A DNA stretch of 64,000 nucleotides, taken from contig JAJYNJ010000097.1 in NCBI GenBank assembly GCA_021786385.1, forward strand, positions 18,409-82,408, read 5' to 3'. Below the pieces are notes generated by a model that saw only the letters and a program-made list of their open reading frames with translations, was not told where the DNA came from and did not search any database. The position numbers and the translations under genes were made by a program. The DNA is from Chloroflexota bacterium. Its GTDB lineage: Bacteria > Chloroflexota > Limnocylindria > Limnocylindrales > CSP1-4. Positions 12,035 to 45,442 of this stretch are shown here, piece after piece; the stretch's first letter is position 1; each line of letters begins with the position of its first letter.

Positions 12035-12106
12035 ATCCGCGCCTGAGTGGCAATCCGCGCAAGAGCTGCAGTCCGCGCCGGAGTTGCAACCCGCGCCCGA
12101 GTTGCA
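12035..12106. repeat. Imperfect 18-bp tandem repeat x4
   Basis: ATCCGCGCCTGAGTGGCA, ATCCGCGCAAGAGCTGCA, GTCCGCGCCGGAGTTGCA, ACCCGCGCCCGAGTTGCA. Confidence 0.85.
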
Positions 12107-12329
12107 ATGGCAGATGCAAGGCTCCACCGGATACCGTAAGGACGGCTGGGCGCGGTTGCGCCCGGTGGTCGCCGGCCCAACGCGCGCGTCGGTGGCTACC
12201 TCGGGTCGGCCGGTTGTCGGCGTCGGCGCCTGCCCGGGTCGGCCACGTATAGGACGATCGGTGTATTGCGTGGCATGCGGCCACTGGTACGATCCCGTGA
12301 CCCCGAGGGTGGAGCGTCGTAGCCGGCAG

Positions 12330-13097
12330 ATGACACACACGCACGTTCAGCGGCGCGCCTCCGGCCGGCACCTGGCGTGGCTCGCCGTGATCGCACTCGC
12401 GGTCGCGGCTTGCTCGTCCACGGCGCCGGGATCCACGACGCCCTCTGCAGGGCTCCCCGACGGGATCCCGGTGCCGGCCGAGGCCGTGGTCGTGGTCGGC
12501 CAGGATGGCGGCTACGATGCCGGCGCCACGCTCTACGGCTTCAGCTCGGACCTGGCTCCGGCAGATGCGGCGCGGGCGTACGCGGCACAGCTGCTTGCGG
12601 CGGGCTTCACGCACGCCGGCCGCAACGGAACGTGGTCCCTGTACCGCAACGGTGCGCTGCTCGTCGCGGTCCGTGTCGGGGCGAGCGGCCCGCCCAGCGA
12701 CCTGCTCGTGCGCGTGACCAGGCTGTCGGCCCATCCCGCGCCATCCGCAACAGGCAGCGGAGGCAAGGGCAACGGAAATCTCGGCACCAACGGCAAGCCC
12801 AGTGGGAACGGCAACCCTACTCTTGGGGGCAACGGGAAACCCGACGGCAACCCTGCCGCCGTCGGCGGCAACGGCAACCCCGCTCGCGGCAGCAGCGGCC
12901 ATCCGGGCGCCAACGCCAACGCCAACCCGAACGCCAACCCCGCCAACGCCGGTGCTACCGGGAACCCCGATCCCGGCGTGAGCGGCGCTGCGGCCACCCC
13001 GGCTCCGCAGCCACCTCCGCCGCACGGCCAGCCCTTGGTCCCACCCGGACAGGCCAAGCCCGCCTCCTCCGGCGGCGCCACGCACCCCCACCCGTGA
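12330..13097 (+). CDS. Putative lipoprotein with a Gly/Asn/Pro-rich C-terminal tail
   Basis: Signal peptide with lipobox (LAVIALAVAAC), a small globular region, then GNGKP/NANANP low-complexity repeats. It ends 7 nt before the response regulator. Confidence 0.65.
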   Translation: MTHTHVQRRASGRHLAWLAVIALAVAACSSTAPGSTTPSAGLPDGIPVPAEAVVVVGQDGGYDAGATLYGFSSDLAPADAARAYAAQLLAAGFTHAGRNGTWSLYRNGALLVAVRVGASGPPSDLLVRVTRLSAHPAPSATGSGGKGNGNLGTNGKPSGNGNPTLGGNGKPDGNPAAVGGNGNPARGSSGHPGANANANPNANPANAGATGNPDPGVSGAAATPAPQPPPPHGQPLVPPGQAKPASSGGATHPHP

Positions 13098-13104
13098 CCC
13101 GGCC

Positions 13105-13806
13105 GTGGTGACTGACCAGGTCCGCCGCGTCATGCTCGTCGACGACGACGTACGCCTGCTCGCGCAATTGAGCGAGCGCCTCGAGCGTGACGGATTCGAC
13201 GTCCAGCCGGTTAGATCCGGTCCGGAGGCCATCTCACGCTTCACCGCCTTTGCGCCCGACATCGTGGTCCTCGACCTGATGATGCCCGGCATGGACGGCG
13301 AGGAGACCGCCGAACGGCTGCTGCGCATCGCCGATGTCCCCATCATCGTCCTCTCCGCGGTCACCGCCGGTGAGAGCAAGGTCAAGCTGATCGAGCGCTA
13401 CGCCGAGGACTACGTGACGAAACCGTTCGACTACGCGGAGCTCCGCGCCCGCATCAAGCGTGTGGCGCACCGCCTGGGCGAGCGGGTCCGCGAGCGCGAG
13501 CTGCGCCTCGGCCCGGATCTGACGCTCGTCCTGCAGCGGCGCGAGGCGTGGGTCTTGGGCCGGCGCATCCCACTCAGCCCCATCGAGGTCCGGCTCCTCG
13601 CTGCCTTGGCGCGCGACCTGGGCCGAGTGGTTCGGACCGACCAGCTGGTCGCACGCGGGTGGAGTGAAGTGGACGGCGCAGACGAATCGTTCGTCTGGGT
13701 GTCCATTCGTCGCCTGCGCCAGAAGATCGAACCCGATCCCGACCACCCACGCTACCTCGTCACCGAGCGGGGGGTCGGCTACCGGCTGATCCCGGCCGCT
13801 GCCTAG
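13105..13806 (+). CDS. OmpR-family response regulator (RR1)
   Basis: Receiver (LVDDD, VLDLMMPGMDG, DYVTKPF) and wHTH (SIRRLRQKIEPDPDHPRYLVTERGVGYR). Confidence 0.93.
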   Translation: MVTDQVRRVMLVDDDVRLLAQLSERLERDGFDVQPVRSGPEAISRFTAFAPDIVVLDLMMPGMDGEETAERLLRIADVPIIVLSAVTAGESKVKLIERYAEDYVTKPFDYAELRARIKRVAHRLGERVRERELRLGPDLTLVLQRREAWVLGRRIPLSPIEVRLLAALARDLGRVVRTDQLVARGWSEVDGADESFVWVSIRRLRQKIEPDPDHPRYLVTERGVGYRLIPAAA

Positions 13807-13812: not shown

Positions 13813-15931
13813 ATGGTGCCGCGCCGGGGGCTCAGCTACCGGCAGCAACAGACCTTGTCGCTCCTGGCGTTGGCGATCCTGCCGATCGTGCTCGTCGCGG
13901 CCCTCGTGCTGGGACAGGTGGACGCGGCGGTGCGCGCCGAGGCGGACGGGCGAGCCGTCGATGCCGCGCGCCGTCGAGAGCATCCTCGGATCTGACGCCG
14001 CCGCGCTCGACCGGCTGGCGGAGAGCTACACCACTTGGAACGTGCTGCAGGACGAGGTGGCTGGACTGCACGACCAGGCGATCGCCTCGTCGGTCGTTGA
14101 TTTCCAGGTCGATCAGGGCGGCGTCGACGCCGCGGTCGTCGTCGCTGGTGACCATGCCGTGGCTGGCGGGCCGAGCGACATCGTCGGCACACTCGAACGG
14201 CTCGTTCGCGCCGCGCTGGACACCCCGGGCGCGATGCCCAGCGCGGGCCTCTATGCCGACCTGGCGGGCGGCGTCTACCACGTCGCGTTTCAGCCGATCG
14301 ACCTCTCGGGCCGCTCCGGGCCGGGTGTGGAAGCCGCCGGAGGCCGGGCTGGACTGGCGTTCGCGGAGCGGCTTGGCTCGGACTTCGTCGTCGCCGCGAA
14401 GCGGCTGACCGGGTTCGACGTCGCCGTGTACGACGTCTCGGGCGCGCTCACGGCGGCCTCCGATCAGACGATCGCCGAGCAGTCGGCACCGGCGGACCGG
14501 GTAGCGTCGGCCACGGCCGACGTGCTCGTCGCACAGCGGCGGCCCAACGACATCGTCGCCGTCGCATTCCCGGTCGGGGGCGGCGCCTCCGGGGCAGCCG
14601 GCACGGTTGTCGTCGCCACGCAGCTCGGGCTCGCGGCCGCCATCGGGGCCAGCCTCTTGCCGTACCTCGCGGTCCTGCTCGCCCTCGTGCTCGTCTTCGC
14701 GGCATCGCTGGCGGTCTACCTCGCCGATCTCCTACGTCGGCGGCTTGGCGCCCTCGAAGCGGGGATCGCCGCAGTGGCTGCGGGCGACCTCACGGCACCG
14801 TTGCCGGGAGGCGACCGGGACCCGCTCGACCGCCTGGGGGCGTCGCACAACCGGCTGGCCGCGGCGCTCGAACGGCGTGAGCGCATTGTGTGGCGCTCGC
14901 TCGAGGCGCTGGAGGCGCTGCGGCCCGACCGCGGCCCCACGGCCCTGGTCGGCGCCGTGCTCGATGCCGGTCGCTCGATCTTCGAACTCGATGCCTGCTG
15001 GCTCCGCGACGCAAACGACGCGGTCATGACCATTGCACCGCCAGGGAAGATCGCCGTCGCCCCTGCGCCGGTGTCGGCCAACTTGGGGGCCATCCCGGGC
15101 CACCGCTTGGAAGGCGCGGGCCCGTCCGTCGGCGCATGGACCGTGGCTGACCGCGCCCTCTTCGGCCTCTTCGCCCGCGAGGCCGGCGTGGCGCTGCGCA
15201 ACGCGGGACTTCACGAGGAGACGGCGCGTCGAACCGAGCAGCTCGGTCGGGCCCATGCGCTGCAGCGGGAGTTCGTGCGGGGCCTAGGGCACAACCTGCA
15301 GGCGCCGCTTGCGCGCATCCTGATGGCCTCTGAGGGTCTGGCCGTCGCGTCTGGACTGGACAAGGCAGGCCGGCGCCGCGCGGACGAGATCAATGCCGAT
15401 GCCGACCGACTCGCCCGGGTCGTTCGCGAGCTACTGACAGCGACGCGCCTCGACGCCGGCGTCTTCGTCCCGGCGAGCGAGCCGTTTGCGCTCGCACCCG
15501 CGGTCCGACGGGCCTGGCACGCCTTGGGGACCGACCGCCGGCTCGACCTGGTCGATCGGAGCACCGGCTGGCTCGCCGTGGCCGATCGAGAGGCGGCCGA
15601 ACAGGTGCTCTGGATCCTGCTCGACAACGCGATCCGCTACGCACCGGCCGGCCCAGTGCACGTGTCGATCTCGTCGGACGAGCCCGGCGAGCCGACGGTG
15701 CGCGTGCGTGACGAGGGCCCCGGCGTGCCACGTGCCGAGCGTGCCCGCATCTTCCGCCGCTTCCAGCGCGGGTCGACCGCCGGCGGACACGAGGGGACCG
15801 GGCTCGGCCTCGACGTCGCCCGGCGGCTGTTGCGCACGATGGGCGGGCGCATCCGCTACGAGGAGGGTCGCGAGGGCGGCGCGACGTTTGCCTTCACGCT
15901 GCCGGCGGAACGCGTTGCCGGCCCCGAATGA
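13813..15931 (+). pseudogene. HAMP-GAF-HisKA-HATPase sensor kinase (HK1), frameshifted near 13965
   Basis: The first TM segment is in ORF 13813..13995 and the rest is in ORF 13961..15931. The frame change falls in the run CCGCGCGCC. H-box GLGHNLQAPL, N-box LLDNAIRY, DEGPG, GTGLGL. Confidence 0.75.
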
Positions 15932-15988
15932 GTGGGGTGCGCGGCCCGGAGTGAGCCCGGGGATCCGTGCCGGGATGAGCCCCGGCGC

Positions 15989-15997
15989 TGCTATGCT
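15989..15997 (+). promoter_or_regulatory. Extended -10 element (TGcTATGCT), probably a leaderless start for RR2
   Basis: TATGCT at 15992-15997, 6 nt before ATG 16004; no SD sequence. Confidence 0.45.
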
Positions 15998-16003
15998 GAC
16001 CCC

Positions 16004-16747
16004 ATGACCACGGCTCCGCGGCCCGTGCGGATCCTCCTCGTCGACGACGACCCGAACTTGCTCGTGGTGCTCGTCGACCAGCTCCGTGACGACGGGTTCG
16101 AGGTCGCGACCGCGCGCGACGGGTTCGAAGCCATCCGGCGCCTGGAGCAGGGCTGGCCAGACCTGCTGATCGTCGATCTCATGATGCCCCGCATGGACGG
16201 TCTCACCCTCGCGCGCCAGATCAAGGAACGGGCCGACCTGCCCGTGATCGTGCTCTCCGCGGTCGACAGTGGCGACTCCAAGGCAAGCACGCTCGAGGCT
16301 GTCGCCGAGGACTACGTCACCAAACCGTTCCATTACCCGGAGCTGCGGGCGCGCATCCACCGCGTCCTGCGACGCGTCGGCGACGCCGTGCCGTCCGGCG
16401 CGCTGCCCCTCGGCCCCGCGCTGATCCTCGACCTGCAGAAACGCCGCGCCATCGTCGACGGCCGCGTGGTGGCGCTGACTCCCGCCGAGTCGCGGCTGCT
16501 CTACGCGCTGGCCGCCAATCTGGGCCGCGTCGTCTCGACCGAGACGCTGCTGGCGCGTGGCTGGTCGGACGCCGAGGTGCCTGATCCGTCCTACGTCTGG
16601 GTCACGATGCGCCGGCTGCGCCAGAAGCTGGAGGCCGACCCAGATCACCCGGTCTACCTGGAGACGATCCGGGGCGCCGGTTACCGGCTGCGGCGGGCCG
16701 AGATGGGCGACTCGGAGGCCAGCGGCGCGGATCGCGCGTCGCGCTGA
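16004..16747 (+). CDS. OmpR-family response regulator (RR2), paralog of RR1
   Basis: LVDDD, IVDLMMPRMDG, EDYVTKPF, SYVWVTMRRLRQKLEADPDHP, RGAGYR. Confidence 0.92.
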   Translation: MTTAPRPVRILLVDDDPNLLVVLVDQLRDDGFEVATARDGFEAIRRLEQGWPDLLIVDLMMPRMDGLTLARQIKERADLPVIVLSAVDSGDSKASTLEAVAEDYVTKPFHYPELRARIHRVLRRVGDAVPSGALPLGPALILDLQKRRAIVDGRVVALTPAESRLLYALAANLGRVVSTETLLARGWSDAEVPDPSYVWVTMRRLRQKLEADPDHPVYLETIRGAGYRLRRAEMGDSEASGADRASR

Positions 16748-16862
16748 TCCCGAGCGGCCGACCGGCCCGCACCCAGTGCCCGGGCACCCATCTCGCCTGC
16801 CCGGTGCCTCTAGGCACCGCTGCTATTCGACCTGCAAGGCGCGATGGTGACACTGGCTTGGT

Positions 16863-17723
16863 ATGCCGCGTCCAGCTACTCTGCTCGCCCGCCTCCGCCC
16901 GCCCTCCCGCGGCCAGGCGCTGGTGGAGCTCGCGCTGGTCCTGCCGATCTTCCTTCTGGTCCTCGCCACCGCCGCGGACTTCGCTCGGGTCTTCTACGGC
17001 TACGTGACAATCCAAAGCGCCGCAAAAGAAGGCGCCCTGTATGGTGCCGTGAACCCTGGGTGCCCGACCGCCGGGGCACAGCCCGCGCCTACGTGCAGCG
17101 ATCCCAACAACGTAGCCTGGCACGTGGCCCAAGAGACGACGAACCTCAGCGGGGTCACCAGCACAGCAAGATGCCTCCACGCGGGTACGTCCGTTCCGGT
17201 CACACAATGCCAACCGGGCGACACCTACGACGTCACGGTCGCGTACAGCTTGAACCTGCTTACACCGCTCCTGCAGCCGCTCTTCCCCTCTGGCGTCGCC
17301 CTCAGCTCCGACGCCAAGGCGGTCGTCTACAACCCGGGCAGCGTCCCCGCAGGGACGCCGGTTCCCGGCCCAACCCCGACGCCAACGCCCACGCCATCCC
17401 CGTCTTCGAGCGCCACCACCACGCCCACGGCGTTTCCCACGGCGACGCCCACACCAACCACGGCACCAACACCCGCCCCGAGTCCATGTGGCCTGGCCCC
17501 GAACTTCAGCTGGAGCGAATCGGGGAAGAGCGGACGGCTCTCGTTCAGCGGCGCGTCCACAGGGACGCCAACGAGCTGGGCGTGGGCGTTCGGCGACGGA
17601 TCGACGGGCGCTGGCCAATCGGTAACGCACGACTACGCAACACCTGGCAGTTACACCGTAACACTCACCGTCAGCAGCGGCACGTGCCAGGTTTCGACCA
17701 ACAAGTCGATCACGGTGCCATAG
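16863..17723 (+). CDS. TadE-like pseudopilin with Pro/Thr linker and C-terminal PKD domain
   Basis: Prepilin site RG|QALVELALVLP, AAKEGALYG, a PTPT linker, and PKD motifs WAWAFGDG and HDYATPGSYTVTLTV. Confidence 0.85.
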   Translation: MPRPATLLARLRPPSRGQALVELALVLPIFLLVLATAADFARVFYGYVTIQSAAKEGALYGAVNPGCPTAGAQPAPTCSDPNNVAWHVAQETTNLSGVTSTARCLHAGTSVPVTQCQPGDTYDVTVAYSLNLLTPLLQPLFPSGVALSSDAKAVVYNPGSVPAGTPVPGPTPTPTPTPSPSSSATTTPTAFPTATPTPTTAPTPAPSPCGLAPNFSWSESGKSGRLSFSGASTGTPTSWAWAFGDGSTGAGQSVTHDYATPGSYTVTLTVSSGTCQVSTNKSITVP

Positions 17724-17725
17724 CG

Positions 17726-18160
17726 ATGCGCCGCCGCAGCTCCAGTCCGGCGTCGAGCGGGCAAGCACTCGTCGAGTTCTCCCTCGCGATCACCATCTTC
17801 GTCTGGCTGATGCTCGGCGTCTTCGACCTCGGACGCCTCGTCTACGTGAACACCGCCACGGCCCAAGCCGCGCGCGAAGCGGCCCGCTGGGGCTCCGTGC
17901 AGTTCAGATCCGCCTCGGACACCAGCCGCCAAACGATCGCGGCATATGCCGTCAACACCATGACGGCGGTCCCATCGCCAAGCGCCAGCGCGACGTGCAT
18001 GGAGAATGGCGCACCGATCGCCGACCCAAGCACCTGCCACGCCGGAGATCTTCTCGTCGTCCACGTGACGAGCGTCGTAGCGCCGATCACGCCGGTGATT
18101 GGGCAGCTCGTCGGCAACGTGACGGTATCCAGTTCCGCAGAGGTGACGGTTCAGCAATGA
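17726..18160 (+). CDS. TadE-like pseudopilin
   Basis: SG|QALVEFSLAIT, GVFDLGRLVY, AAREAARWG. Confidence 0.85.
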   Translation: MRRRSSSPASSGQALVEFSLAITIFVWLMLGVFDLGRLVYVNTATAQAAREAARWGSVQFRSASDTSRQTIAAYAVNTMTAVPSPSASATCMENGAPIADPSTCHAGDLLVVHVTSVVAPITPVIGQLVGNVTVSSSAEVTVQQ

Positions 18161-19200
18161 CGCGTCGGGTTTCGGGACCGTTCCGCGCCGAACACGCGCG
18201 GACCCAAGCGGGCCAGGCGATGCCCCTCTTCGCCATCGTGCTGGTCGGCCTGCTCTTGTTCGCCGGGCTTGCCGTGGACACCGGCTATGCCTTCGTCAAC
18301 CGGCGAGACGCCCAGAATGCGGCCGACCTGGCGGCGCTGGCAGGGACCAAGGTCATCGCGGACTTCTACGTCTCGAACCCAGGGCTGACCGGGGCCGACG
18401 TGTACAACCAGATCGCGACGTCCGTGCAGGAAAACTGCACAGCAACCGGCAACGCGTGCACGGGCTGGTCCGCAGCGTACGTGGACAACACGCTTGCTCC
18501 CATCGCGCCGGTCACCAACAGCGGTGGCATCCCCGGCGGCGCGCAAGGCGTCCAGGTCACGACGGCCAAGCAACCCCCGACGTTCTTCCTGAACCTTCCG
18601 CCAGTCAATCAGACGCACTGGTCGATCGGGGCTACTGCCACGGCGCTGACCGCCAGCGTGCAGGGATTGCCGCCCGGCCAAGTCCTCCCCATTGCCGCAA
18701 ATCCGCCGCACAACTACACGCCCGGGCAGCTAGTGAACCTGACGGACGGCAGCATGAACGGCCCTGGAAATTTCGGTTGGCTCTCCTGGTCTGGCCCGCC
18801 CAGCGAGCCAAACCTCGCAACGAGCCTCTGCACCCCCAACAACCCCTATCTCGCCTTCCCGGCTCTCGTCACCGGTGACCCGGGGCAGAAGAACGGAAAA
18901 GCCGTACGCGCGTGCCTCCAACAGTGGGTCACGAGCGGGACGGTCGTCTACATCCCGCTCTGGGCAAAGGGGCCGCTGTCCGCGCCAAATCAGAACTGTG
19001 TGACCGCGCCACAGGGGAGCTGGGGCCAGTACTGCATCACCGCGCTCGCGGCGTTCGTGCTGACCGGTTTCGACCAGCCCGCTGTCGACCAGATCACGGG
19101 GCGGTTCGTCGCGTTCTACACACTCCCGAGTGTGCCAGCGGGATACGGGGGCCCGCCAACACCCGGGTCAACCTCGTATTTCCTGGGTCTCGTGAAGTAG
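18157..19200 (+). CDS. TadG-like minor pilin (Tad N-terminal domain)
   Basis: AG|QAMPLFAIVL, GLAVDTG, AQNAADLAALAG, GPGNFGWLSW; ATGA overlap with the previous gene. Confidence 0.82.
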   Translation: MTRRVSGPFRAEHARTQAGQAMPLFAIVLVGLLLFAGLAVDTGYAFVNRRDAQNAADLAALAGTKVIADFYVSNPGLTGADVYNQIATSVQENCTATGNACTGWSAAYVDNTLAPIAPVTNSGGIPGGAQGVQVTTAKQPPTFFLNLPPVNQTHWSIGATATALTASVQGLPPGQVLPIAANPPHNYTPGQLVNLTDGSMNGPGNFGWLSWSGPPSEPNLATSLCTPNNPYLAFPALVTGDPGQKNGKAVRACLQQWVTSGTVVYIPLWAKGPLSAPNQNCVTAPQGSWGQYCITALAAFVLTGFDQPAVDQITGRFVAFYTLPSVPAGYGGPPTPGSTSYFLGLVK

Positions 19201-19430
19201 CCACCGCGGTCCGCGAAAGAGCCGCCCACCGTTCCAGAGAGGCAGCGCGTCAGGGAGCTCGGCTCGGCGACTGGCCGGCCGGCGTCCCGCATTCCGGCCA
19301 GCCAGCGCGACGACGGCCGTCTCGGTGGCCGGTCGAGCGCCGGAGGGGTACCAACGTCCCACCGGGAACTAGACCATCGTGCCATATGAGCGCAAGGTGT
19401 TCCGTAAGGTCGACGCCGCATCGTGAGTGC

Positions 19431-20195
19431 ATGCGCACGCGATCGGGCGTCATCAACCTCAGCGCTCGGAACGGCGACCTCGGCCAAAGTCTTGCTGAGT
19501 TCGCGTTGATGCTCCCCTTCCTCTTGCTCACACTCGTGCTCGCGCTGGACTTCGGCCGTGTCTTTCTCGGCTGGGTGCAGCTCAACAACATGGCGCGCAT
19601 CGCGGCCAACTACGCGGCACAGCACCCCGACGCGTGGGCGTCCGGGAACACGTCACAACAGGCCGCCTACCAGTCGCTCGTGCAGGACGACGCGGGAGCG
19701 ATCGACTGCACCCTCCCGAGCCCGCTCCCCACCCCGACCTTCCCCGCCGGTGACACACTGGGAGCGCCCGCCAGGGTCCAGCTGAGCTGCTCCTTCCAGC
19801 TGATCACGCCACTCGCCGGCGGCATCGTGGGCAACCCACTGACCGTGTCGGCCTCGGCCGTCTTCCCGATCCGCACCGGGATGGTCGCCGGCGTCCCGGC
19901 CGCCTCGAGTATCCCGTCCCCGACCCCATCTCCCACCCCCGCACCCACCGCGACCCCAACCCCGACGCCGAGCACGAGCCCGAGTCCCACGCCCACGCCC
20001 ATGTGCACGGTGCCGAAGTTCACCGGTACGAACACCGTCAATGCCCAGGCAACGTGGACCGCGGCCGGCTTCACCACGACCGTCATCTTCAGCCCCGTGC
20101 GACCTCCCGAGTACGTCATCAATGGCCAGTCGATCGCCGCTGGGTCGAGCGTGGCCTGCAACTCCGGGATGACCGTCTATGACAAGCACCAGTGA
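19431..20195 (+). CDS. TadE-like pseudopilin with Pro/Thr linker and C-terminal PASTA-like domain
   Basis: LG|QSLAEFALMLP, LALDFGRVF, ARIAANYA, a PTPS linker, then CTVPKFTG...AQATWTAAGF, which resembles a PASTA repeat. Confidence 0.78.
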   Translation: MRTRSGVINLSARNGDLGQSLAEFALMLPFLLLTLVLALDFGRVFLGWVQLNNMARIAANYAAQHPDAWASGNTSQQAAYQSLVQDDAGAIDCTLPSPLPTPTFPAGDTLGAPARVQLSCSFQLITPLAGGIVGNPLTVSASAVFPIRTGMVAGVPAASSIPSPTPSPTPAPTATPTPTPSTSPSPTPTPMCTVPKFTGTNTVNAQATWTAAGFTTTVIFSPVRPPEYVINGQSIAAGSSVACNSGMTVYDKHQ

Positions 20196-20697
20196 GGCAG
20201 GACCCTTGACACCGCTGCCTCCGGGTCGGTTCATCCGGACGCCCCGCGCGGCGCGCTCGGCGGGTCGATCCGCCGGCCAAGCGTTGGTCGAATTCGCGCT
20301 GGTCTTCCCCGTGGTCGTCTACCTCTTGCTTGGCCTCTTCGACTTGGGGCGTGCGGTGTACGCCTACAACACGATCGCGAACGCGGCTCGCACCGGCGCC
20401 CGCGTCGCCATTGTCAACCAAACCATCACGAGCCCTAACGACTGCCCGGTCACGCAATCGATCCAACGGTGCGCCGCCGACCAAGCGGTCTCGCTCGGGA
20501 TCGACCCGGCCACGATCCAGGTCCGCTTCGTCACCCCCGACCAATCGGCGACCTGCGCCCCAGTGAGCATCGGGTGTCTGGCCGAAGTGACGGTCTCGTA
20601 CACCTTCACCCCGTTGACACCGGGCGTGGCGAGCTTGCTCGGCCCGATCCAGATGAGCTCGACGAGCGTCGAGCCGATCGAGTCGACCTACCCATGA
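20179..20697 (+). CDS. TadE-like pseudopilin (start uncertain)
   Basis: AG|QALVEFALVFP, GLFDLGRAVY, NAARTGARVAIV. Confidence 0.85.
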   Translation: MTSTSEAGPLTPLPPGRFIRTPRAARSAGRSAGQALVEFALVFPVVVYLLLGLFDLGRAVYAYNTIANAARTGARVAIVNQTITSPNDCPVTQSIQRCAADQAVSLGIDPATIQVRFVTPDQSATCAPVSIGCLAEVTVSYTFTPLTPGVASLLGPIQMSSTSVEPIESTYP

Positions 20698-21977
20698 GCA
20701 TCGAGCGGGGAGGTTCGGGAATGTCGACGTTCCGGAGATCCAACGCGCGCCATGGCAGACAAGGCGGCCAGGCGTTGCCGCTGCTGGTCGGCGGCATCGC
20801 AGCAGTGTTGGCGCTGACCGCCCTGGTGGTCGATGGCGGGAACGCCTGGGCCCAACAGCGCATCGTGCAAAACGCCACCGACGCCGTCGCGGAGGCCGGC
20901 GCCGTCACGCTCGCCCAGATGTGGGCGGGCCAAACCGCGCCGGCTGCCGGCTGGGATGCCGCGACGGCCACCGCCATGGCCCAGATGGCCGCCCAGAACG
21001 GGATCCCCACACCGCCCGGTTACTACACGGATGTCTGCGGCACCCTGCTCACCCCAACCGGCGCGGCCGCCGCAGATACCAGCACGGCCGCGCAGGTCGG
21101 CAGTGGCCAGATGCCCCCGACCAACGCCAACTGGCCCACCGCCTGCCCTTCGGCCACCCCGGGCCCGCCGAGCGGCGTCCTCGTCAACGGCGCCCGCCAA
21201 TTTCACACCTACCTCGCGGCTGCGGTCGGGATTTCGACGATGTCCGCGTCTGCGACCGCCACGGCGGTGTCGGGCTTCCTCCAGGCAGAGTGCGATGCCA
21301 TATCCGGCTGCGCGCTGCTCCCGATGATGCTGCCAGTCTTCCTCCTCCAGTGCAGCTCGAACAACCAGGTCATCTGGCCGCCGACCGGTCAGCCGTGGCC
21401 GCTGAACACGGTCCTCACCGTGCCGCTCTGCCAAAACGGCCCCGGCAACGTTGGGTGGGTGGACTGGACCCCGCCGGCCGGCGGAACCCAGGAGCTGGTC
21501 CAATCGATCGAGACACCCAACAACCCTCCCATCCCCGTCCCGTCATGGCAGTACATCTCGCAAACCGGGAACATCAACAGCGGAGACGTCGAGACGGCGC
21601 TGCGCGCGTACGACGGGCAGATCGTGCTGATCCCGATGTTCGACAACACCTGCGATGCACAGCCGACCGGGAACGGTCTGAACGACTGCCCGAGCGGCCA
21701 CCTGAGCGGCAATGGGCAACAGCAGTGGTATCACGTTGCCCAATTCGCGGCGTTCCAGCTCTGCGGCGGTGCCAATGACTTCTGCGGGGCCACCTATCAG
21801 TACGGGGCCTACATCCAGGGGAACAACCAAGCGATCTGCGCGAACGGTGGAAACGGCGGCACCTCCTGTCTCGCAGGGCGGTTCGTCAAGTACGTGACCG
21901 GGACCACCGTGGTGCGCCCGCCATCTGGCGGTGGCTCCACAGTGACGAGCATCGTGGGGGTCCAGCTCATCCACTGA
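20694..21977 (+). CDS. TadG-like minor pilin, second copy
   Basis: GG|QALPLLVGG, ALVVDGGNAW, VQNATDAVAEAG, GPGNVGWVDW; Cys-rich C-terminal domain; ATGA overlap. Confidence 0.82.
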   Translation: MSIERGGSGMSTFRRSNARHGRQGGQALPLLVGGIAAVLALTALVVDGGNAWAQQRIVQNATDAVAEAGAVTLAQMWAGQTAPAAGWDAATATAMAQMAAQNGIPTPPGYYTDVCGTLLTPTGAAAADTSTAAQVGSGQMPPTNANWPTACPSATPGPPSGVLVNGARQFHTYLAAAVGISTMSASATATAVSGFLQAECDAISGCALLPMMLPVFLLQCSSNNQVIWPPTGQPWPLNTVLTVPLCQNGPGNVGWVDWTPPAGGTQELVQSIETPNNPPIPVPSWQYISQTGNINSGDVETALRAYDGQIVLIPMFDNTCDAQPTGNGLNDCPSGHLSGNGQQQWYHVAQFAAFQLCGGANDFCGATYQYGAYIQGNNQAICANGGNGGTSCLAGRFVKYVTGTTVVRPPSGGGSTVTSIVGVQLIH

Positions 21978-22433
21978 GCGTGTCGCGCGGGAGGGGGCGC
22001 CCACCCGCACCAGCGACAGCGCATTCGGTGGAGAGGGGCGGCGCTTTGGGCCCTGCGTGAGGGTGCGCCGTCTCGATCATCGTGGGATCGGTTACGTGCG
22101 TCCCGCGGCTCGTGCCCGCGACCATCGTGCGCGTGCAACCGGAATGGCCGTCGACCTAGCCGTGTAACGCCGGGAGCGGAGCCATCTGACGCACCCTCCG
22201 CGGGATCGCCGGTAGCTGCGGCCGGCCTGTTCGCCGACGCGCACCACCCGGTGGAAGGCAAGAGCGGCCCACAGGGGAGCAGCCCGGGGTGACGCACGTG
22301 GAGGGCAGCGATGTGCGCTGCATGCCGATCACCGCGTCTCAGCGCGTCGGCAATGCGGCCTTCCATCAGCTGCCCCCACGAGCCGAGCCGCCACGCGCTC
22401 CCCGTGTTCGCCAGCTGATATGCTCGCCACACC

Positions 22434-24245
22434 GTGAGCCGGTTACCCCTCCGGTCCCGACTCTTCCTCGCGCTCGCGACGGTCGCGCTGCTCCCCGTCC
22501 TCGTCTTCGGCGTGGTGGCCGTCCAGCTCGCCACCTCCGGCGCGGCCCAACAGCAACAGTCGGCCACGCTCCGCCTGGCGCAGCTCGCGGCCGCCGGGCT
22601 GCCGCGTCAGCAGCTCCCCGACGCGTCCGCGGCCGGACGCCTCGCGGCGCTCACCGGTGGGAGCGTCACGATCTTCGACCTGGACGGCGTCGCGCGATCC
22701 CAGTCCGGGGACGCCGCGATCGCCACCCTGCCGCCATTCCCCTCGTCGGCGAGCGACGGGGTCGCCATGCAGACCGGCAGCCGCATCGTCGCGGTCGTAC
22801 CGTTGCAGGGCGCTGCCGGCCAGCCGATCGGCTACCTCGCCCTGGCCCAGCCGCTCGCGGGCTCGCCCGATGTGGGCGTGGTCCTGGCGGTCGCCCTGAC
22901 GATGACCGTGCTCTGGGGCGTCTTCCTCAGCTTCGCCCTGGCTCGTGTGCTGATCCATCCGATGCGCGAACTGACGGTCACACTCGACCGACTGCAGGCA
23001 GGCGATCTGTCGGCCCGCATCGTGGCGCCGGCGGACGACGAGCTCGGGCGCCTGGCCGAGAGCCACAATCGGCTCGCGGCGGCGCTCGCGGCCCGGAACG
23101 AGTCGCTGCACCAGGTGCTGGAGGCGCTGGCCGCCTTGTCACCGCGCGACGGGATCGCACCGCTCCTTGCGACGGCCGAAGGTGCCGCGACCACCGCCTT
23201 CGGGTTCCGCTCGGTCGAGATCGTGCTGGCTGGCGAGGGGCGCCGGAACGCGCCGGAACCGGGCGAACGGGTCCCCGGCGAGGCGTGGATCGTGGTCGCG
23301 CCGCTGCGCCTCGGCGACGACGAGGTGGGCTGGCTGCGCGCGGTCGTGCCCCCGACACGCGACTGGGGCCCCGCGGACACCGACCTGCTCGCCTTGTTCG
23401 GCAACCAGCTCGCGGCCGCGGTGCGGAACGCCGAGCTCTACGCGGCGGCGAACTCGCTCTCGGAGCTGAAGAGCGAGTTCCTGCGCGGTGTGAGCCACAA
23501 TCTGCAGACACCGCTGACCAGCATCCGCGCCTTCGCCGAGCGACTGGCGACACACAACCACGATCCGGGGCTGCGCATCATCATCGAGCAGGCGGATCGG
23601 CTCTCGCGGCTGGTCGCGCAACTGCTGACGGTGTCGCGTCTGGAGGCCGGCACGCTGCGACCGCAGGAAGAGGTCGTGGCGCTGGCCCCGTTGGTCCGTC
23701 GGGCGTGGGAAAGCCTCGGGCACGATGAGGTGCCGTTCACGCTCCGGGACGATGCGGCGGGATGGCTGGCGGTGGCCGACCGTGACTGGCTCGACCAGAT
23801 CGTCTGGGCGCTGCTCGACAACGCGGTCAAGCACGGGGGTGGCGCACCGGTCGAGGTCGCGATCCGCGAGGAGCGGGCGACCGAACCGGGCGCCGGGGTC
23901 GGCGGTGGCGACGACCGCGGCGCTGGGGCCGACGACCGCGGCGCTGGGGCCGGTGGCGAACCGATCGCGTCGAGCGTGGACGGCACCCCGCACGATCGCG
24001 TGCGGCCCACCGGAGCTCGCCTCGTGGTCACCGTCCGCGACCACGGGCCCGGCATCTCGGAAGCCATACGCAATCGGATCTTCGAGCGCTTCACCACGGG
24101 CGGTCCGACCGGCGGCACGGGTCTCGGACTGAGCGTGGCCCGCGGCCTCGTCCATGCGATGGGGGGCTCGATCTGGGTCGAGCATCCCGGCGACGGGGCG
24201 GCGTTCGTCTTCGCGCTTCCTGCCGAACCACCGGGCGACGCGTGA
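22434..24245 (+). CDS. HAMP-GAF-HisKA-HATPase sensor kinase (HK2), paralog of HK1
   Basis: Two TM segments, HAMP, H-box GVSHNLQTPL, LLDNAVKH, DHGPG, GTGLGL. TGaTATGCT lies 9 nt upstream of the GTG. Confidence 0.9.
   Translation: MSRLPLRSRLFLALATVALLPVLVFGVVAVQLATSGAAQQQQSATLRLAQLAAAGLPRQQLPDASAAGRLAALTGGSVTIFDLDGVARSQSGDAAIATLPPFPSSASDGVAMQTGSRIVAVVPLQGAAGQPIGYLALAQPLAGSPDVGVVLAVALTMTVLWGVFLSFALARVLIHPMRELTVTLDRLQAGDLSARIVAPADDELGRLAESHNRLAAALAARNESLHQVLEALAALSPRDGIAPLLATAEGAATTAFGFRSVEIVLAGEGRRNAPEPGERVPGEAWIVVAPLRLGDDEVGWLRAVVPPTRDWGPADTDLLALFGNQLAAAVRNAELYAAANSLSELKSEFLRGVSHNLQTPLTSIRAFAERLATHNHDPGLRIIIEQADRLSRLVAQLLTVSRLEAGTLRPQEEVVALAPLVRRAWESLGHDEVPFTLRDDAAGWLAVADRDWLDQIVWALLDNAVKHGGGAPVEVAIREERATEPGAGVGGGDDRGAGADDRGAGAGGEPIASSVDGTPHDRVRPTGARLVVTVRDHGPGISEAIRNRIFERFTTGGPTGGTGLGLSVARGLVHAMGGSIWVEHPGDGAAFVFALPAEPPGDA
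23910..23951 (+). repeat. In-frame 21-bp duplication (DDRGAGA x2) within HK2
   Basis: GACGACCGCGGCGCTGGGGCC at 23910 and 23931. Confidence 0.85.
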
Positions 24246-24285
24246 GCGCGATCGGCGCGGGCGAGTGGCGGGGCAGGCGACGGCG

Positions 24286-25329
24286 ATGACGGGGACGAGC
24301 TGCGAGCCCGAGCGGTCGATGCCGTACGGCGGTCCGCACGATCCAGGCCCGGCCGAAGCCGCACGGCGGGCCCGCGCCCTCGAAGACGCCGCCGCACGTC
24401 CGATCGCGGCCCCGTCGGGAGGGGAGATCCGGATCGGGACCGCCTCGTGGACCGACCCCACCATGACCGCCCCCGGCGTCTTCTACCCACCCGACGCCGA
24501 GACCGCCGAAGCGCGCCTCATCTACTACGCCCGCAGCTTCCCGTTGGTGGAAGTCGACGCCACCTACTACGCGCTGCCGGTACCGGCGACGGCGAGGCTC
24601 TGGGTGCGCCGGACGCCGCCCGACTTCACCTTCGACGTGAAGGCGCACGCACTGATGACCGGCCAGCCCAGCGAGACGCGGCGCCTGCCACGCCAGATCC
24701 GCGACGCCCTGCCCGCCGAGCTCGCCGCCAAACCGCGCCTCTACGCGAGCGACCTGCCGCCGGAGCTGCGCGACGAGATCTGGCGCCTCTTCATCGCCGG
24801 GATCGAACCGTTGCAAGCGTCTGGCAGGCTCGGATCCGTGCTGCTGCAGTACCCGCGTTGGGTGGTGCCGTCGGCGCGGGATCGCGACGCGATCGTCGAG
24901 GCCCGCGAGCGGCTGGCCGGGCTCACCTGTGCCGTCGAGTTCCGCAACGCGGCCTGGCTCGACGAGCGGAACGCCGAGCGGACGTTGCAGTTCCTGGCCG
25001 ACCACGGCATGCCATTCGTGATGGTCGATGAGCCGCAGGGGCTGCGCAGCAGCATGCCACCGGTCGTCGCCACCACCTCGCCGCAGCTCGCGATCGTGCG
25101 GTTTCACGGCCGACGAGCCGAGACGTGGGAGGCGACGGGGATCCCAACCGCGGAGCGCTACCGCTATCTCTACGACCGCGCAGAACTCGGCGAGTGGGTG
25201 CCGCGCATCATCGAGGCGGCGACGGCCGCCCGCGAGATGCACGTGCTGATGAACAACTGCTTTGCGAACTACGGCGCGACGAACGCGCGGGAGATCGCCG
25301 CGCTGCTGCAGGGGGTCCGGCTCGAGTGA
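24286..25329 (+). CDS. DUF72 family protein (start uncertain)
   Basis: IRIGTASWTD, FPLVEVDATYY, FTFDVKA, LLQYP, AVEFRN, VRFHGR, MNN. Confidence 0.88.
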   Translation: MTGTSCEPERSMPYGGPHDPGPAEAARRARALEDAAARPIAAPSGGEIRIGTASWTDPTMTAPGVFYPPDAETAEARLIYYARSFPLVEVDATYYALPVPATARLWVRRTPPDFTFDVKAHALMTGQPSETRRLPRQIRDALPAELAAKPRLYASDLPPELRDEIWRLFIAGIEPLQASGRLGSVLLQYPRWVVPSARDRDAIVEARERLAGLTCAVEFRNAAWLDERNAERTLQFLADHGMPFVMVDEPQGLRSSMPPVVATTSPQLAIVRFHGRRAETWEATGIPTAERYRYLYDRAELGEWVPRIIEAATAAREMHVLMNNCFANYGATNAREIAALLQGVRLE

Positions 25330-38832: not shown

Positions 38833-39490
38833 CTCGATCCCCTCCCGTGGCTCGCTGCTGTCTTGGCGACAGGATACGGCCGAGGGTGCCCCGGGGGACG
38901 TGCCATTCGTCGGGGGTCCGACACCCGACGAGGTGCGAGGGGCGCACGGAGCGCTGCGGCGGCTTGGGCGCGCGCGCGCCCCGCGACCTGATCGGGCGAG
39001 TGTCGGGCGCCGTCCGCGGCCGAGTGAACCGGGCCTCGTCCGCGGCGCACTGCATGCTCAAGGCCCGGCGCGCAGCATGCGCCGCCTACCGAGCACCTCG
39101 TCGACCAGGCACGAGGGCCTGGTCGCTGTGACCGCGCGCAATGGTGGTGATCGGTCGCGGCGGGACGCAGAACCTTCGTGGCCCACAGCAAGCGAGCTAC
39201 TCAAACCTACCGCAGCCGAGCTCATGCATCCACCGGCAGAGCCGATGCCGACCGATCCTCGGGTGTGAGCCGGATCCCAGCCAGGCAGTCCGCAACACGG
39301 CGCGGCACGTCAGCGCCGCTCCCGTCCCGATGCAACAGGCGGGGCCCGCGAGCAGCCAATGCAGGTCGCTCGCGGGCCCCGCCGGATCGGACGGTGACGT
39401 CGCACGTCGGTCACCGCAGCGAGACCGTAACCACGGGATACGAACCTCAGCGTCAGCCCTCCTTCCGGACAGCCGGCGCGGAGATCTCGA

Positions 39491-40540: not shown

Positions 40541-40629
40541 GATGGTTCATCCTCCTCATAGTTGTGACGACAGGAAGGGAACATGGGGTTCGCCGGATCC
40601 ACCTCCTTCGGCCGAACAGGGGCCATCGC

Positions 40630-43109: not shown

Positions 43110-43504
43110 AAGGCCACCCCCGCCCGCAGTACGACGTTGGCGTACGGCGTGAACTCTCCGGTTCTGATCACCGCCACGGCCTCCGATGTCATCTGCTTGA
43201 GGTCATCGTGCGGGACACGCATGACGGCGATGGAAGGCTCCAGCACCTGAGCGACGGCGCCCGCCAGCGACGGGTTACCTGAGCCTAGTTCGGTGGCGAT
43301 CGTCGCAGCCTCGAAGACCCCCTCCTCGACTACGGCCTGAAGCACCGGGAGAAACCCCGGAAGACCCGGCTGGACGGCTAAGTCAATGCGCCGGACAGAG
43401 GGCGGGATGGGCAGGCCCGCGTCCGCCACTACCAGCAACTGGCCATGCCCCAGTCCTGCAATGACACCGGCCAATTCCGCGTGAAGCAGTCCCCTGGACC
43501 TCAT
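43106..43504 (-). CDS. rbsD: D-ribose pyranase
   Basis: LGHGQLLVVADAGLP, RRIDLAV, HDDLK, IRTGEFTPYANVVL. Confidence 0.93.
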   Translation of the reverse strand: MRSRGLLHAELAGVIAGLGHGQLLVVADAGLPIPPSVRRIDLAVQPGLPGFLPVLQAVVEEGVFEAATIATELGSGNPSLAGAVAQVLEPSIAVMRVPHDDLKQMTSEAVAVIRTGEFTPYANVVLRAGVAF

Positions 43505-44421: not shown

Positions 44422-44424
44422 GGC

Positions 44425-45408: not shown

Positions 45409-45442
45409 TCCGGAGAACCTCTCGCTGCCGGTCCACCGTTGA

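What the first reader, a model, noticed from the sequence alone, without database searches (positions are those of the whole stretch)
16863..21977. Two tandem TadE-TadE-TadG pilus-tip cassettes with no pilus machinery
Seen: six consecutive prepilin-like genes arranged as [TadE+linker+domain, short TadE, TadG] twice, with a 230-nt gap between the triplets. Four have G|QxxxE and the two TadG lack E5. No flp, tadV, cpaF/tadA or tadB/C gene is in the window. The region looks richer in A/C-ending codons than its flanks (by eye). Established: minor pilins with a bulky E5-less subunit form the tip/initiation complex of type IV filaments. Inference: a stand-alone library of alternative tips, differentially expressed under the flanking TCSs, giving one Tad machine switchable adhesion specificity.
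Basis: partly seen in the sequence, partly recalled or inferred. Interest (0 to 1): 0.72.

Follow-up and report, generated by a model that had tools for sequence, protein, structure and literature searches.

The report
Two regulated Tad pilus-tip gene modules
An uncultured soil and sediment bacterium (Chloroflexota, class Limnocylindria) carries two three-gene sets for the small proteins that start and cap Tad adhesion pili; each set has its own regulator-binding site and sits apart from the pilus motor genes, an arrangement already shown in Myxococcus and seen here in a new lineage with its own control circuit.

Summary
Positions 16863-21977 encode six pilin-like genes in two TadE-TadE-TadG triplets, 230 nt apart. 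Four have the G|QxxxE motif and the two TadG-like proteins lack E5. The 64-kb window has no Tad core.

The organism is a Limnocylindria bacterium. In relatives, orthologous triplets lie directly after flp-cpaB-tadZABC plus a response regulator and kinase. In two metagenomes a tad-core contig has the same depth as the window contig, so a machine elsewhere is very likely.

Triplet 1 (family A) and triplet 2 (family B) are both widely conserved. Relatives hold 1-4 triplets per locus in changing combinations, and some triplets stand alone.

The first TadE of a triplet carries a swappable C-terminal domain: PKD, PASTA, or DUF7507/CARDB.

The main new result is a direct repeat, GCAAGGT-N5-GCAAGGT, followed by a -10-like hexamer. 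It precedes nearly every triplet, including window 19392-19410 just before gene 4. The linked OmpR-type regulators share almost the same recognition helix. This points to separate promoters within one regulon, not to a demonstrated differential switch.

Interchangeable Tad tips were published for Myxococcus in 2025, so I class this as a new variant of a known kind.

The parts
13132..13806 (+). RR1, an OmpR-family response regulator. It is an extra paralogue of the triplet-linked regulator.
   Evidence: It has Response_reg and Trans_reg_C domains. It is 55-57% identical to RR2 and to the L004 regulator. Its recognition helix, DESFVWVSIRRLRQKIE, differs slightly from the others.
13961..15931 (+). 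HK1, a histidine kinase with weak CHASE4-like, HAMP, HisKA and HATPase domains. It pairs with RR1.
   Evidence: Domains come from the Pfam scan. It is 38-41% identical to the triplet-linked kinases of relatives, with lower scores than HK2 gets.
16004..16747 (+). RR2, the orthologue of the regulator that precedes the triplets in relatives.
   Evidence: It is 72-73% identical to the L004 and L007 regulators. Its recognition helix, DPSYVWVTMRRLRQKLE, is shared with the core-linked regulators of L006 and L009.
16802..16819 (+). A GC-rich hairpin (CGGTGCC-tcta-GGCACCG) between RR2 and g1. It may be a terminator; this is weak evidence.
   Evidence: It was read from the sequence. The fold z-score of the spacer is only -1.97. 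The consensus terminator scan did not call it.
16834..16854 (+). The g1 promoter region. It has a single proximal half-site GCAAGGC (16834-16840), an 8-nt spacer, and a -10-like GACACT (16849-16854). The distal half-site is degenerate.
   Evidence: The spacing is the same as at the conserved operator of relatives. The ATG lies 8 nt after the hexamer, so the mRNA would be leaderless or nearly so; this is inferred.
16863..17723 (+). g1, the large TadE-like minor pilin of family A. It has a prepilin leader and G|QALVE, a pilin domain, a Pro/Thr linker and a C-terminal PKD domain.
   Evidence: Domains come from the Pfam scan. The N-terminal 160 aa are 45-50% identical to L004, L006 and L007 orthologues, whose C-terminal domains differ.
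17726..18160 (+). g2, the small TadE-like minor pilin of family A.
   Evidence: TadE scores 44.7 bits. It is 46-55% identical to L004 and L006 orthologues.
18157..19200 (+). g3, the TadG-like large minor pilin of family A. It lacks E5.
   Evidence: PF13400 scores 53.8 bits. It has at least 194 homologues. The AF2 model has pLDDT 86, with an N-terminal helix at residues 21-72 and an alpha/beta globule. It has no PDB fold match.
19392..19424 (+). The operator and promoter of triplet 2: GCAAGGT-gttcc-GTAAGGT (19392-19410), an 8-nt spacer, and a -10-like CATCGT (19419-19424).
   Evidence: It is the only match with 1 mismatch or fewer in the 64-kb window. The same element precedes triplets in about 30 relatives.
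19431..20195 (+). g4, the large TadE-like minor pilin of family B. It has G|QSLAE, a Pro/Thr linker and a C-terminal PASTA-like domain.
   Evidence: TadE scores 39.9 bits; PASTA scores 16.9 bits, below its cut-off. The C-terminus aligns with the PASTA repeats of the L006 protein, which score 33 bits. The ATG at 19431 is preferred over the gene caller's 19509, because 19509 would remove the leader and the start of the helix.
20179..20697 (+). g5, the small TadE-like minor pilin of family B. The start is ATG 20179 or the start codon at 20206 used by the ENA gene caller.
   Evidence: TadE scores 61.3 bits. It is 34-41% identical to the L009 small TadEs.
20721..21977 (+). g6, the TadG-like large minor pilin of family B. 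It lacks E5.
   Evidence: It is 34-35% identical along its length to the core-linked TadGs of L009. It has 355 homologues at 46-56% identity. The AF2 model has pLDDT 82 and the same helix-plus-sheet layout as g3.
22434..24245 (+). HK2, a histidine kinase with HAMP, GAF, HisKA and HATPase domains. It is the orthologue of the kinase that follows the regulator in relatives. Here the six pilin genes separate it from RR2.
   Evidence: Domains come from the Pfam scan. Its best hits are the L004 and L007 kinases, at 42% identity over about 500 aa. Strains 5-10% divergent keep the same order.

Best explanation
The six genes are two paralogous Tad (type IVc) minor-pilin modules. Each encodes a large TadE-like subunit that carries a binding domain on a Pro/Thr linker (PKD in g1, PASTA-like in g4), a small TadE-like subunit, and an E5-less TadG-like subunit.

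By analogy with other type IV filaments and with the Myxococcus Kil 'Tips', each trio would be cleaved by the prepilin peptidase. It would then assemble in the membrane into a complex that primes Flp polymerisation on a Tad machine encoded elsewhere in the genome, and it would end up at the pilus tip displaying its binding domain.

Each triplet is its own transcription unit. It is preceded by a direct repeat, GCAAGGT-N5-GCAAGGT, that overlaps the -35 position, followed by a -10-like hexamer. This is the layout of promoters activated by OmpR/PhoB-type regulators. The regulator-kinase pair encoded next to the triplets is the likely controller.

All triplet families share this operator, and the regulators share their recognition helix. 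The cell therefore probably switches on a repertoire of tips together. Any graded differences would come from site quality: gene 4 has a full site and gene 1 has a half site.

Shown here: gene identities, motifs, family structure, synteny, and the operator with its position. Inferred: tip location, complex formation, regulator binding, and what the tips bind.
For: - Pfam and motif evidence supports all six genes.
- Orthologous triplets lie directly downstream of flp-cpaB-tadZ-tadA-tadB-tadC-RR-HK in L006, L008, L009 and L034.
- Family A is found in about 35 Limnocylindria genomes. Family B has 355 homologues.
- The exact 14-base operator occurs 18 times in the fetched loci. All are on the coding strand just upstream of a first-position TadE gene, against about 0.004 expected from base composition (my own arithmetic).
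- With up to 2 mismatches there are 57 sites in 790 kb, about 48 of them upstream of such genes. The operator also precedes orphan triplets that have no kinase or regulator nearby.
- The window site at 19392-19410 is the only close match in 64 kb.
- The recognition helices of the linked regulators are nearly identical.
- In sample X10 the window-like contig has depth 45.9 and the tad-core-like contig 47.4. In sample X1 the figures are 15.3 and 14.2.
- The AF2 models of g3 and g6 are pilin-like.
- PMC12075869 gives published precedent.
Against: - No experiment or transcript data bear on this. Three metatranscriptomes from a study that holds the organism gave no signal.
- Heterotrimer formation could not be modelled.
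- The Tad core was not shown on the same molecule, only by matching depth in two samples.
- Gene 1 has only half an operator.
- The 12-bp repeat period is slightly longer than the 10-11 bp typical of OmpR/PhoB sites (from general knowledge).
- No prepilin peptidase gene was seen in the loci inspected.
Confidence: 0.7

Rival explanations
1. The two triplets are alternative tips that are expressed differentially. Each would be under a different flanking two-component system, so that one machine switches adhesion specificity.
For: - The window holds two paralogous two-component systems, RR1/HK1 and RR2/HK2, whose kinases have different sensor regions.
- The two triplet promoters differ in quality: half a site at g1 and a full site at g4.
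- The RR1 recognition helix differs from that of RR2 at five conservative positions.
Against: - The operator is the same for all triplet families, and no family-specific variant was seen.
- The regulators linked to different loci share their recognition helix.
- Relatives usually have a single regulator-kinase pair in front of several triplets of different families.
- In Myxococcus all four Tips must be expressed at sufficient levels, and tip efficiency did not follow expression level.
Confidence: 0.2
2. The triplets are mainly assembly primers and signalling partners of the neighbouring kinase. Unassembled minor pilins in the membrane would feed back on the kinase and tune their own expression, as with FimS-AlgR and FimU-PilVWXY1 in Pseudomonas aeruginosa. 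Adhesion specificity would be secondary.
For: - A regulator-kinase pair is linked to triplets in most Limnocylindria loci, both at the tad core and at the separate locus.
- In the window the kinase gene lies directly after the pilin genes.
- PMC5979040 gives the precedent by its title and abstract.
Against: - The swappable PKD, PASTA and DUF7507/CARDB domains on an otherwise orthologous subunit make most sense as displayed binding domains.
- Orphan triplets exist without a neighbouring kinase.
Confidence: 0.25
3. The Tad pilus of this lineage is a DNA-uptake (competence) pilus, and the triplets form DNA-capturing or cell-wall-spanning tips.
For: - A ComF-family gene (TIGR00201, 87 bits, E 1e-24, below the curated cut-off) and a DUF192 gene close the tad locus in L006, L008, L009, L023, L025, L034 and L044.
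- Flp-pilus-dependent transformation is reported in another monoderm group (PMC4322843, title).
Against: - No ComEC or ComEA gene was seen in the loci inspected.
- PKD, CARDB and PASTA are not known DNA-binding domains (general knowledge).
- The ComF match is below the family threshold.
- The window locus has no competence gene nearby.
Confidence: 0.12
4. The proteins are not part of a pilus. They would be membrane-anchored surface proteins that merely use a pilin-type signal sequence to display PKD or PASTA domains.
For: No core genes are in the window. Several triplets stand alone in relatives.
Against: - The fixed trio of two E5-bearing subunits and one E5-less large subunit is the composition of priming complexes in type IV filaments.
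- Orthologous triplets are contiguous with tadZABC and flp in several relatives.
- The genes within a triplet abut or overlap, which fits fixed-ratio co-production (my inference).
Confidence: 0.05

Closest known systems
Interchangeable 'Tip' complexes KilL/KilM/KilN of the Myxococcus xanthus Kil Tad pilus (Herrou et al., Nat Commun 2025, PMC12075869)
   Same: Both have several paralogous TadE/TadF/TadG-like triplets per genome, most of them encoded away from the machine genes. In both, one large subunit has no solved structural homologue. In both, variable domains are proposed to be exposed at the pilus end.
   Different: - The lineage here is Chloroflexota, and its tad core shows no secretin gene in the loci seen.
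- Triplets are often arranged in tandem.
- The swappable domain sits on the first TadE-like subunit behind a Pro/Thr linker, not on the TadG/KilN-like subunit.
- A dedicated regulator-kinase pair and a shared operator accompany the triplets. A term search of that paper found no mention of a two-component system.
- The paper reports tip1-4 homologues as restricted to Myxococcota.
- There is no link to predation or to a T3SS here.
Canonical tadE-tadF-tadG at the end of tad loci (Aggregatibacter, Pseudomonas aeruginosa and others)
   Same: The same three protein kinds occur in the same order. The TadE/TadF types carry a prepilin motif with E5, and TadG is large (Pfam; summary).
   Different: Canonical loci have one set per locus, contiguous with tadZABC. 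The window has two sets and no core. Relatives have 1-4 sets, with accessory Ig-like or PASTA domains.
FimS-AlgR control of the fimU-pilVWXY1E minor-pilin operon of Pseudomonas aeruginosa type IVa pili (PMC5979040)
   Same: A two-component system controls a minor-pilin operon. In Pseudomonas the minor pilins also feed back on that system.
   Different: The pilus class differs (IVa against IVc), as does the regulator family (LytTR-type AlgR, from general knowledge, against OmpR-type). No feedback has been shown here.
Three minor-pilin/PilY1 gene clusters of the Myxococcus xanthus type IVa pilus (PMC7541494)
   Same: One machine is served by alternative priming and tip sets encoded at separate loci (title and abstract).
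   Different: Those are type IVa sets of four minor pilins plus PilY1, not TadE/TadG trios.

Membership tests
TadE/TadF pseudopilins (Pfam PF07811) | N-terminal TadE domain above the gathering score | tested here: met
   g1 scores 46.7 bits, g2 44.7, g4 39.9 and g5 61.3, against a cut-off of 22.9.
TadE/TadF pseudopilins (Pfam PF07811) | Prepilin-peptidase site G|xxxxE followed by a hydrophobic helix | tested here: met
   The sites are RG|QALVE, SG|QALVE, LG|QSLAE and AG|QALVE, each followed by a hydrophobic stretch. The Limnocylindria Flp has EG|QTLVEY.
TadE/TadF pseudopilins (Pfam PF07811) | Cleavage by a TadV/CpaA-type prepilin peptidase | not testable with these tools
   This needs biochemistry. 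No peptidase gene was seen in the window or in the core loci inspected.
TadE/TadF pseudopilins (Pfam PF07811) | Genetic linkage to flp and tadZABC | tested here: inconclusive
   The feature is absent from the 64-kb window. It is present for orthologues in L006, L008, L009 and L034. A tad-core contig matches the window contig in depth in two samples.
TadG-like large minor pilin (Pfam PF13400) | PF13400 domain above the gathering score | tested here: inconclusive
   g3 meets it, at 53.8 bits against 22.3. g6 falls just short, at 20.8 bits. However, g6 aligns with g3 and with L009 TadGs that do carry PF13400, and many of its homologues carry the domain.
TadG-like large minor pilin (Pfam PF13400) | Pilin-like fold: a long N-terminal helix followed by a globular beta-rich domain | tested here: met
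   The AF2 model of g3 has its helix at residues 21-72 (pLDDT 86). The model of g6 has its helix at residues 18-68 (pLDDT 82).
TadG-like large minor pilin (Pfam PF13400) | No Glu at mature position 5 (the capping-subunit trait of type IV filaments) | tested here: met
   g3 has Q-A-M-P-L and g6 has Q-A-L-P-L. Relatives have I, V or M at position 5.
Interchangeable Tad tips (KilLMN type, PMC12075869) | Several paralogous TadE/TadF/TadG-like triplets per genome, some away from the core | tested here: met
   The window has two. Relatives have 1-4 per locus, plus orphan loci.
Interchangeable Tad tips (KilLMN type, PMC12075869) | The three proteins form a heterotrimer through their N-terminal helices | not testable with these tools
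   Only single-chain prediction is available.
Interchangeable Tad tips (KilLMN type, PMC12075869) | The variable distal domain is carried by the TadG/KilN-like subunit | tested here: not met
   Here the recognisable swappable domains (PKD, PASTA, DUF7507/CARDB) sit on the first TadE-like subunit. The TadG families also differ from one another, but as whole proteins.
Interchangeable Tad tips (KilLMN type, PMC12075869) | Sequence membership in tip1-4 families | not tested
   The paper reports these families as restricted to Myxococcota. No Kil sequences were compared here.
OmpR/PhoB-type activated promoter | A regulator with receiver and winged-helix domains encoded next to the targets | tested here: met
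   RR1 and RR2 have both domains. The same pairing occurs in relatives.
OmpR/PhoB-type activated promoter | Direct repeats about one helical turn apart, overlapping the -35 position upstream of a -10 element | tested here: met
   The layout is GCAAGGT-N5-GCAAGGT, then 8-9 nt, then a (c/g/t)AtagT-like hexamer. The period is 12 bp.
OmpR/PhoB-type activated promoter | The regulator binds the repeats and activates transcription | not testable with these tools
   This needs EMSA, DAP-seq or reporter assays.

The most novel reading that the evidence does not exclude
Limnocylindria, an abundant uncultured soil lineage, may run a regulon of interchangeable Tad pilus tips under two-component control. 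In it, binding specificity would be changed by swapping a domain (PKD, PASTA, DUF7507/CARDB) on an otherwise orthologous TadE-like subunit. The linked kinases would sense tip load or surface contact. PASTA-bearing tips would bind peptidoglycan on other cells, giving the pilus a role in cell-cell contact.
Probability: 0.2. Interest if true: 0.7.

Novelty: new variant of a known kind. Interest (0 to 1): 0.5.

Why it matters
Tad pili are widespread adhesion and surface-sensing organelles, and what sits at their tip was unknown until very recently. This locus shows that the multi-tip design described in Myxococcus also exists in a distant lineage, Chloroflexota, whose tad core shows no secretin gene in the loci seen. 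The lineage is common in soils and sediments.

The locus also adds two things that can be tested directly. The first is a sharply defined operator that marks every tip module, so all modules can be found in any genome of the lineage. The second is a natural series of domain swaps on one orthologous subunit, which points to where binding specificity lies.

Tried and rejected
- **Consensus promoter and terminator scan.** The sigma-70 and terminator scan of 16500-22600 found no promoter, and its one terminator-like site lies inside g4. It was not informative.
- **Spacer folding.** Folding the three spacers gave z-scores of -0.4, -1.5 and -2.0, so there is no convincing structured RNA.
- **RNA evidence.** Only three metatranscriptomes came from a study that holds the organism. 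They gave only spurious 20-40-nt matches.
- **Fold searches.** The g3 and g6 models found nothing in the PDB (best E 0.1 and 0.9).
- **NCBIfam.** It gave no family for five of the six proteins. g3 got a sub-threshold Rv3654c-type TadE hit.
- **Hypervariable cassettes.** I rejected this idea. Against a roughly 99% identical strain, the pilin genes carry 0.13-0.67% SNPs while HK1 and RR2 carry 0.75-0.81%. Against a roughly 10% divergent strain, the pilins differ by 9.9% and the flanks by 7.2-8.6%.
- **Invariant operon.** I rejected this idea. The composition and order of triplets differ between relatives.
- I used L034 instead.
- **Source of the window.** I first took the ENA contig L001 to be the source. 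It is in fact a close strain with SNPs and indels.
- **Literature.** A search for Limnocylindria plus pili found no paper.

Full report
**What is there.** Positions 16863-21977 hold six same-strand genes.
- g1 (16863-17723) has a TadE domain, a Pro/Thr linker and a PKD domain.
- g2 (17726-18160) is a short TadE protein.
- g3 (18157-19200) has the TadG-type PF13400 domain.
- g4 (19431-20195) has a TadE domain, a Pro/Thr linker and a weak PASTA hit.
- g5 (20179 or 20206 to 20697) is a short TadE protein.
- g6 (20721-21977) has sub-threshold PF13400 and Tad_C hits.

g6 is TadG-like on other grounds. It aligns with g3 (27% over 350 aa), and it is 34-35% identical to TadG proteins of a relative that do carry PF13400. 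It also has 355 homologues, some of which NCBI names 'TadG-related'.

The four TadE proteins carry G|Q-x-x-x-E. The two TadG-like proteins have G|Q but Leu at position 5. Genes within a triplet abut or overlap, and the triplets are 230 nt apart.

The codon remark is correct but small. A-ending codons are 9.3% against 5.2% in other window genes, and G-ending codons are 34% against 42%. This goes with a Thr/Pro/Ser/Asn/Gln-rich composition.

**Surroundings.**
- Upstream lie an OmpR-type regulator (RR1, 13132-13806), a kinase (HK1, 13961-15931) and a second regulator (RR2, 16004-16747).
- Downstream lies a kinase (HK2, 22434-24245).
- Further downstream are DUF72, a SenX3/RegX3-like pair, ppx and pstCAB-phoU.
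- The rest of the window is housekeeping: a glycerate kinase, an acyl-CoA synthetase/acetyltransferase, copper genes and menaquinone genes.
- Neither Pfam nor tblastn with lineage-specific Flp, CpaB, TadZ, TadA, TadB and TadC finds any Tad core gene in the 64 kb.

**Whose genome.** Homologues and genome records place the locus in Chloroflexota, class Limnocylindria. Near-identical sequence occurs in sediment, mine-drainage, rock and hot-spring metagenomes.

**The Tad system of the lineage.** Two long contigs of relatives show the core. Its order is a HisKA_3 kinase, a GerE regulator, flp (61 aa, EG|QTLVEY), cpaB/rcpC, tadZ, tadA, tadB, tadC, an OmpR-type regulator and a kinase. One or two TadE-TadE-TadG triplets follow, and then DUF192 and a ComF-family gene. 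No secretin gene is seen in these loci.

The triplets therefore belong to this Tad system. In L006 and L008 the orthologue of the window's first triplet lies in that same locus.

**Is there a core in this genome?** It cannot be shown on one molecule, but depth gives a clue.
- In sample X10 a strain about 5% divergent from the window sits on a 24-kb contig of depth 45.9. In the same sample a 19.4-kb contig colinear with tadZ-tadA-tadB-tadC of L034 has depth 47.4.
- In sample X1 the contig identical to the window has depth 15.3, and a 24-kb tad-core-like contig has depth 14.2.
- The other matching contigs listed for X10 are at depth 2-6.

This is binning-grade evidence that the organism has the machine elsewhere.

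**Families and variability.** All-against-all comparison defines triplet families.
- Family A comprises g1-g3 and their orthologues in L004, L006, L007 and L008 (TadG 41-55% identical).
- Family B comprises g4-g6 and the two core-linked triplets of L009 (TadG 34-35% identical; closer relatives at 46-56%).
- Family C is the core-linked set of L006 and L008.
- Three more families occur in L004.

A scan of one genome per species with the family A TadG returned about 35 Limnocylindria loci. I mapped them.
- The commonest context is glycerate kinase, HhH-GPD glycosylase, regulator and kinase, followed by triplets. This is the window's context.
- Family A occurs alone or with one to three further triplets of families B, C, b, c or d. 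The order varies.
- In five genomes family A sits at the tad core.
- Family B also occurs as orphan triplets among unrelated genes.

The repertoire therefore varies between species. Each module, however, is a conserved family and not a fast-evolving cassette.
- Against a 99% identical strain, the pilin genes carry fewer SNPs than HK1 and RR2.
- Against a 10% divergent strain, the pilins differ by 9.9% and the flanks by 7.2-8.6%.
- Both of those strains keep the order RR2, six genes, HK2.

**Where specificity may lie.** The first TadE of a triplet has a conserved pilin part of about 160 aa and a changeable C-terminal part.
- Across 55 such proteins Pfam finds PKD in 28, DUF7507 in 14, CARDB in 9 and PASTA in 3.
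- Within family A alone, orthologues carry different domains. The window and L004 have PKD. L006 has two PASTA-like repeats (33 bits, above cut-off). L007 and many others are about 530 aa with DUF7507.
- The C-terminus of g4 aligns with the L006 PASTA repeats, sharing the C-x-V-P ... A-G-F-T pattern.

AF2 models of g3 and g6 are confident (pLDDT 86 and 82). Both show a 50-residue N-terminal helix followed by an alpha/beta globule, and neither has a PDB match. They share a conserved G-N-x-G-W-x-x-W motif.

**A shared operator.** The upstream regions of first-position TadE genes are strongly enriched for GCAAGGT: 32 of 54 regions contain it, against none of the coding controls.
- The motif occurs as a direct repeat, GCAAGGT-N5-GCAAGGT, followed after 8-9 nt by a hexamer like TATAGT, CATAGT or GATAGT.
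- The exact 14-base pattern occurs 18 times in the fetched loci. Every one is on the coding strand just upstream of a triplet. Base composition predicts about 0.004 (my arithmetic).
- With up to two mismatches there are 57 sites in 790 kb, and about 48 of them are in that position.
- No site was found upstream of flp, cpaB or tadZ.
- The element also precedes orphan triplets.

In the window the only close match is 19392-19410. It is followed by CATCGT (19419-19424) and then the ATG at 19431. This supports 19431 as the start of g4 and suggests a leaderless or nearly leaderless transcript.

Upstream of g1 only the proximal half-site survives (GCAAGGC, 16834-16840). It keeps the same 8-nt spacing to GACACT (16849-16854).

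The winged-helix recognition helix, DPSYVWVTMRRLRQK(L/V)E, is almost identical in RR2, in its orthologues, and in the core-linked regulators. It changes conservatively in RR1 and is unrelated in the RegX3-like regulator. RR2 and HK2 are the orthologues of the adjacent regulator-kinase pair of relatives (72% and 42% identity). Among the loci examined, they are split by the pilin genes only in the window and its near-identical strains (L001 and the X10 and X14 contigs).

**Mechanism proposed.** Each trio is made from its own promoter when an OmpR-type regulator is activated. The prepilin peptidase trims the subunits. The trio assembles in the membrane, primes Flp polymerisation on the Tad machine and stays at the tip, where it exposes the PKD or PASTA-like domain.
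- Shown: the gene content, the families, the synteny and the operator.
- Inferred: the tip location, the trimer, regulator binding and the ligands.

Because the operator and the recognition helix are shared, the sequence favours co-regulation of a repertoire of tips over a switch between them. A graded difference between gene 1 (half site) and gene 4 (full site) remains possible.

**Comparison with what is known.** Herrou et al. 2025 (PMC12075869) showed that the Myxococcus Kil Tad pilus uses four paralogous TadE/TadF/TadG-like trios. Three of them are encoded away from the machine, and they act as interchangeable tips. The authors also proposed that canonical TadEFG form similar tips in other bacteria.

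This locus differs in five respects:
- the lineage, and the lack of a secretin gene in the core loci seen;
- the tandem arrays;
- the position of the swappable domain, on the TadE-like rather than the TadG-like subunit;
- the linked two-component system;
- the operator.

The closest regulatory analogue is FimS-AlgR control of the Pseudomonas type IVa minor-pilin operon, with feedback from the minor pilins (PMC5979040). No paper on pili in Limnocylindria was found.

**Verdict.** The locus is a new variant of a known kind and of moderate interest. Its most useful product is the operator, which defines a testable regulon.

Noticed in passing
window 12050-12142, upstream of 12258-13097: A run of GCAA-type half-sites lies here: GCAATCC, GCAAGAG, GCAACCC, GCAATGG-N5-GCAAGGC and GTAAGGA. 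It precedes a lipoprotein-like gene (lipobox LAVAAC, Gly/Asn/Pro-rich tail, no family) that heads RR1-HK1-RR2. This may be autoregulation of the two-component operon. However, the best match has 3 mismatches, which is at chance level.
   Followed up: partly
window 39000-46000: This stretch has lower G+C (0.61-0.67 against 0.70-0.77 elsewhere). It holds a sugar-binding protein, a LacI regulator and two ORFs with no family in Pfam or NCBIfam (40768-41382 and 41604-43250). It may have been acquired horizontally.
   Followed up: no
window 16004-16747 and 22434-24245: The orthologous regulator and kinase are adjacent in every relative inspected. Here the six pilin genes split them, and an extra paralogous regulator-kinase pair sits upstream. 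Strains 5-10% divergent keep this order.
   Followed up: partly
L006 6971-8246; L008 17097-18143; L009 19855-20914: A DUF192 gene and a ComF-family gene close the tad locus in several Limnocylindria and in an Anaerolineae relative. The ComF match (TIGR00201) scores 87 bits with E 1e-24, which is below the curated cut-off. It hints at a link between this Tad pilus and DNA uptake.
   Followed up: partly
L007 11114-11132; L020 11116-11134; L092 1753-1771 (- strand): Operator-like repeats occur where no triplet follows. In L007 and L020 nothing recognisable lies downstream. In L092 the site precedes a 203-aa ORF with no family. These may be remnants or further members of the regulon.
   Followed up: no
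window 19280-19333: The hot-spring strain (X10, X12) lacks 54 nt of the spacer between g3 and g4. The operator at 19392-19410 is untouched. The same strain has several small indels at 16842-16859, in the presumed g1 promoter.
   Followed up: no
L001, compared with window 8057-28900: The ENA contig that encodes the 99%-identical g3 is not the source of the window. It differs by about 0.5% SNPs and several indels, including 21 nt inside HK2. A Logan contig of run X1 is identical to the window over 14000-24500.
   Followed up: yes
window 48769-51891 (- strand) and 60425-62794 (+ strand): Two unusual fusions occur here. One is a 1040-aa CopC-CopD protein with a C-terminal Vgb-lyase/NHL-type beta-propeller. 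The other is an AMP-binding (MenE-like) enzyme fused to an alpha/beta hydrolase.
   Followed up: no
L049, L056-L058 and other loci: The G-N-F-G-W-[LV]-x-W motif region of the family A TadG (about residues 190-320) also matches proteins in Verrucomicrobiota, Anaerolineae, Ardenticatenaceae and Acidobacteriota genomes. The C-terminal module therefore reaches far beyond Limnocylindria.
   Followed up: no
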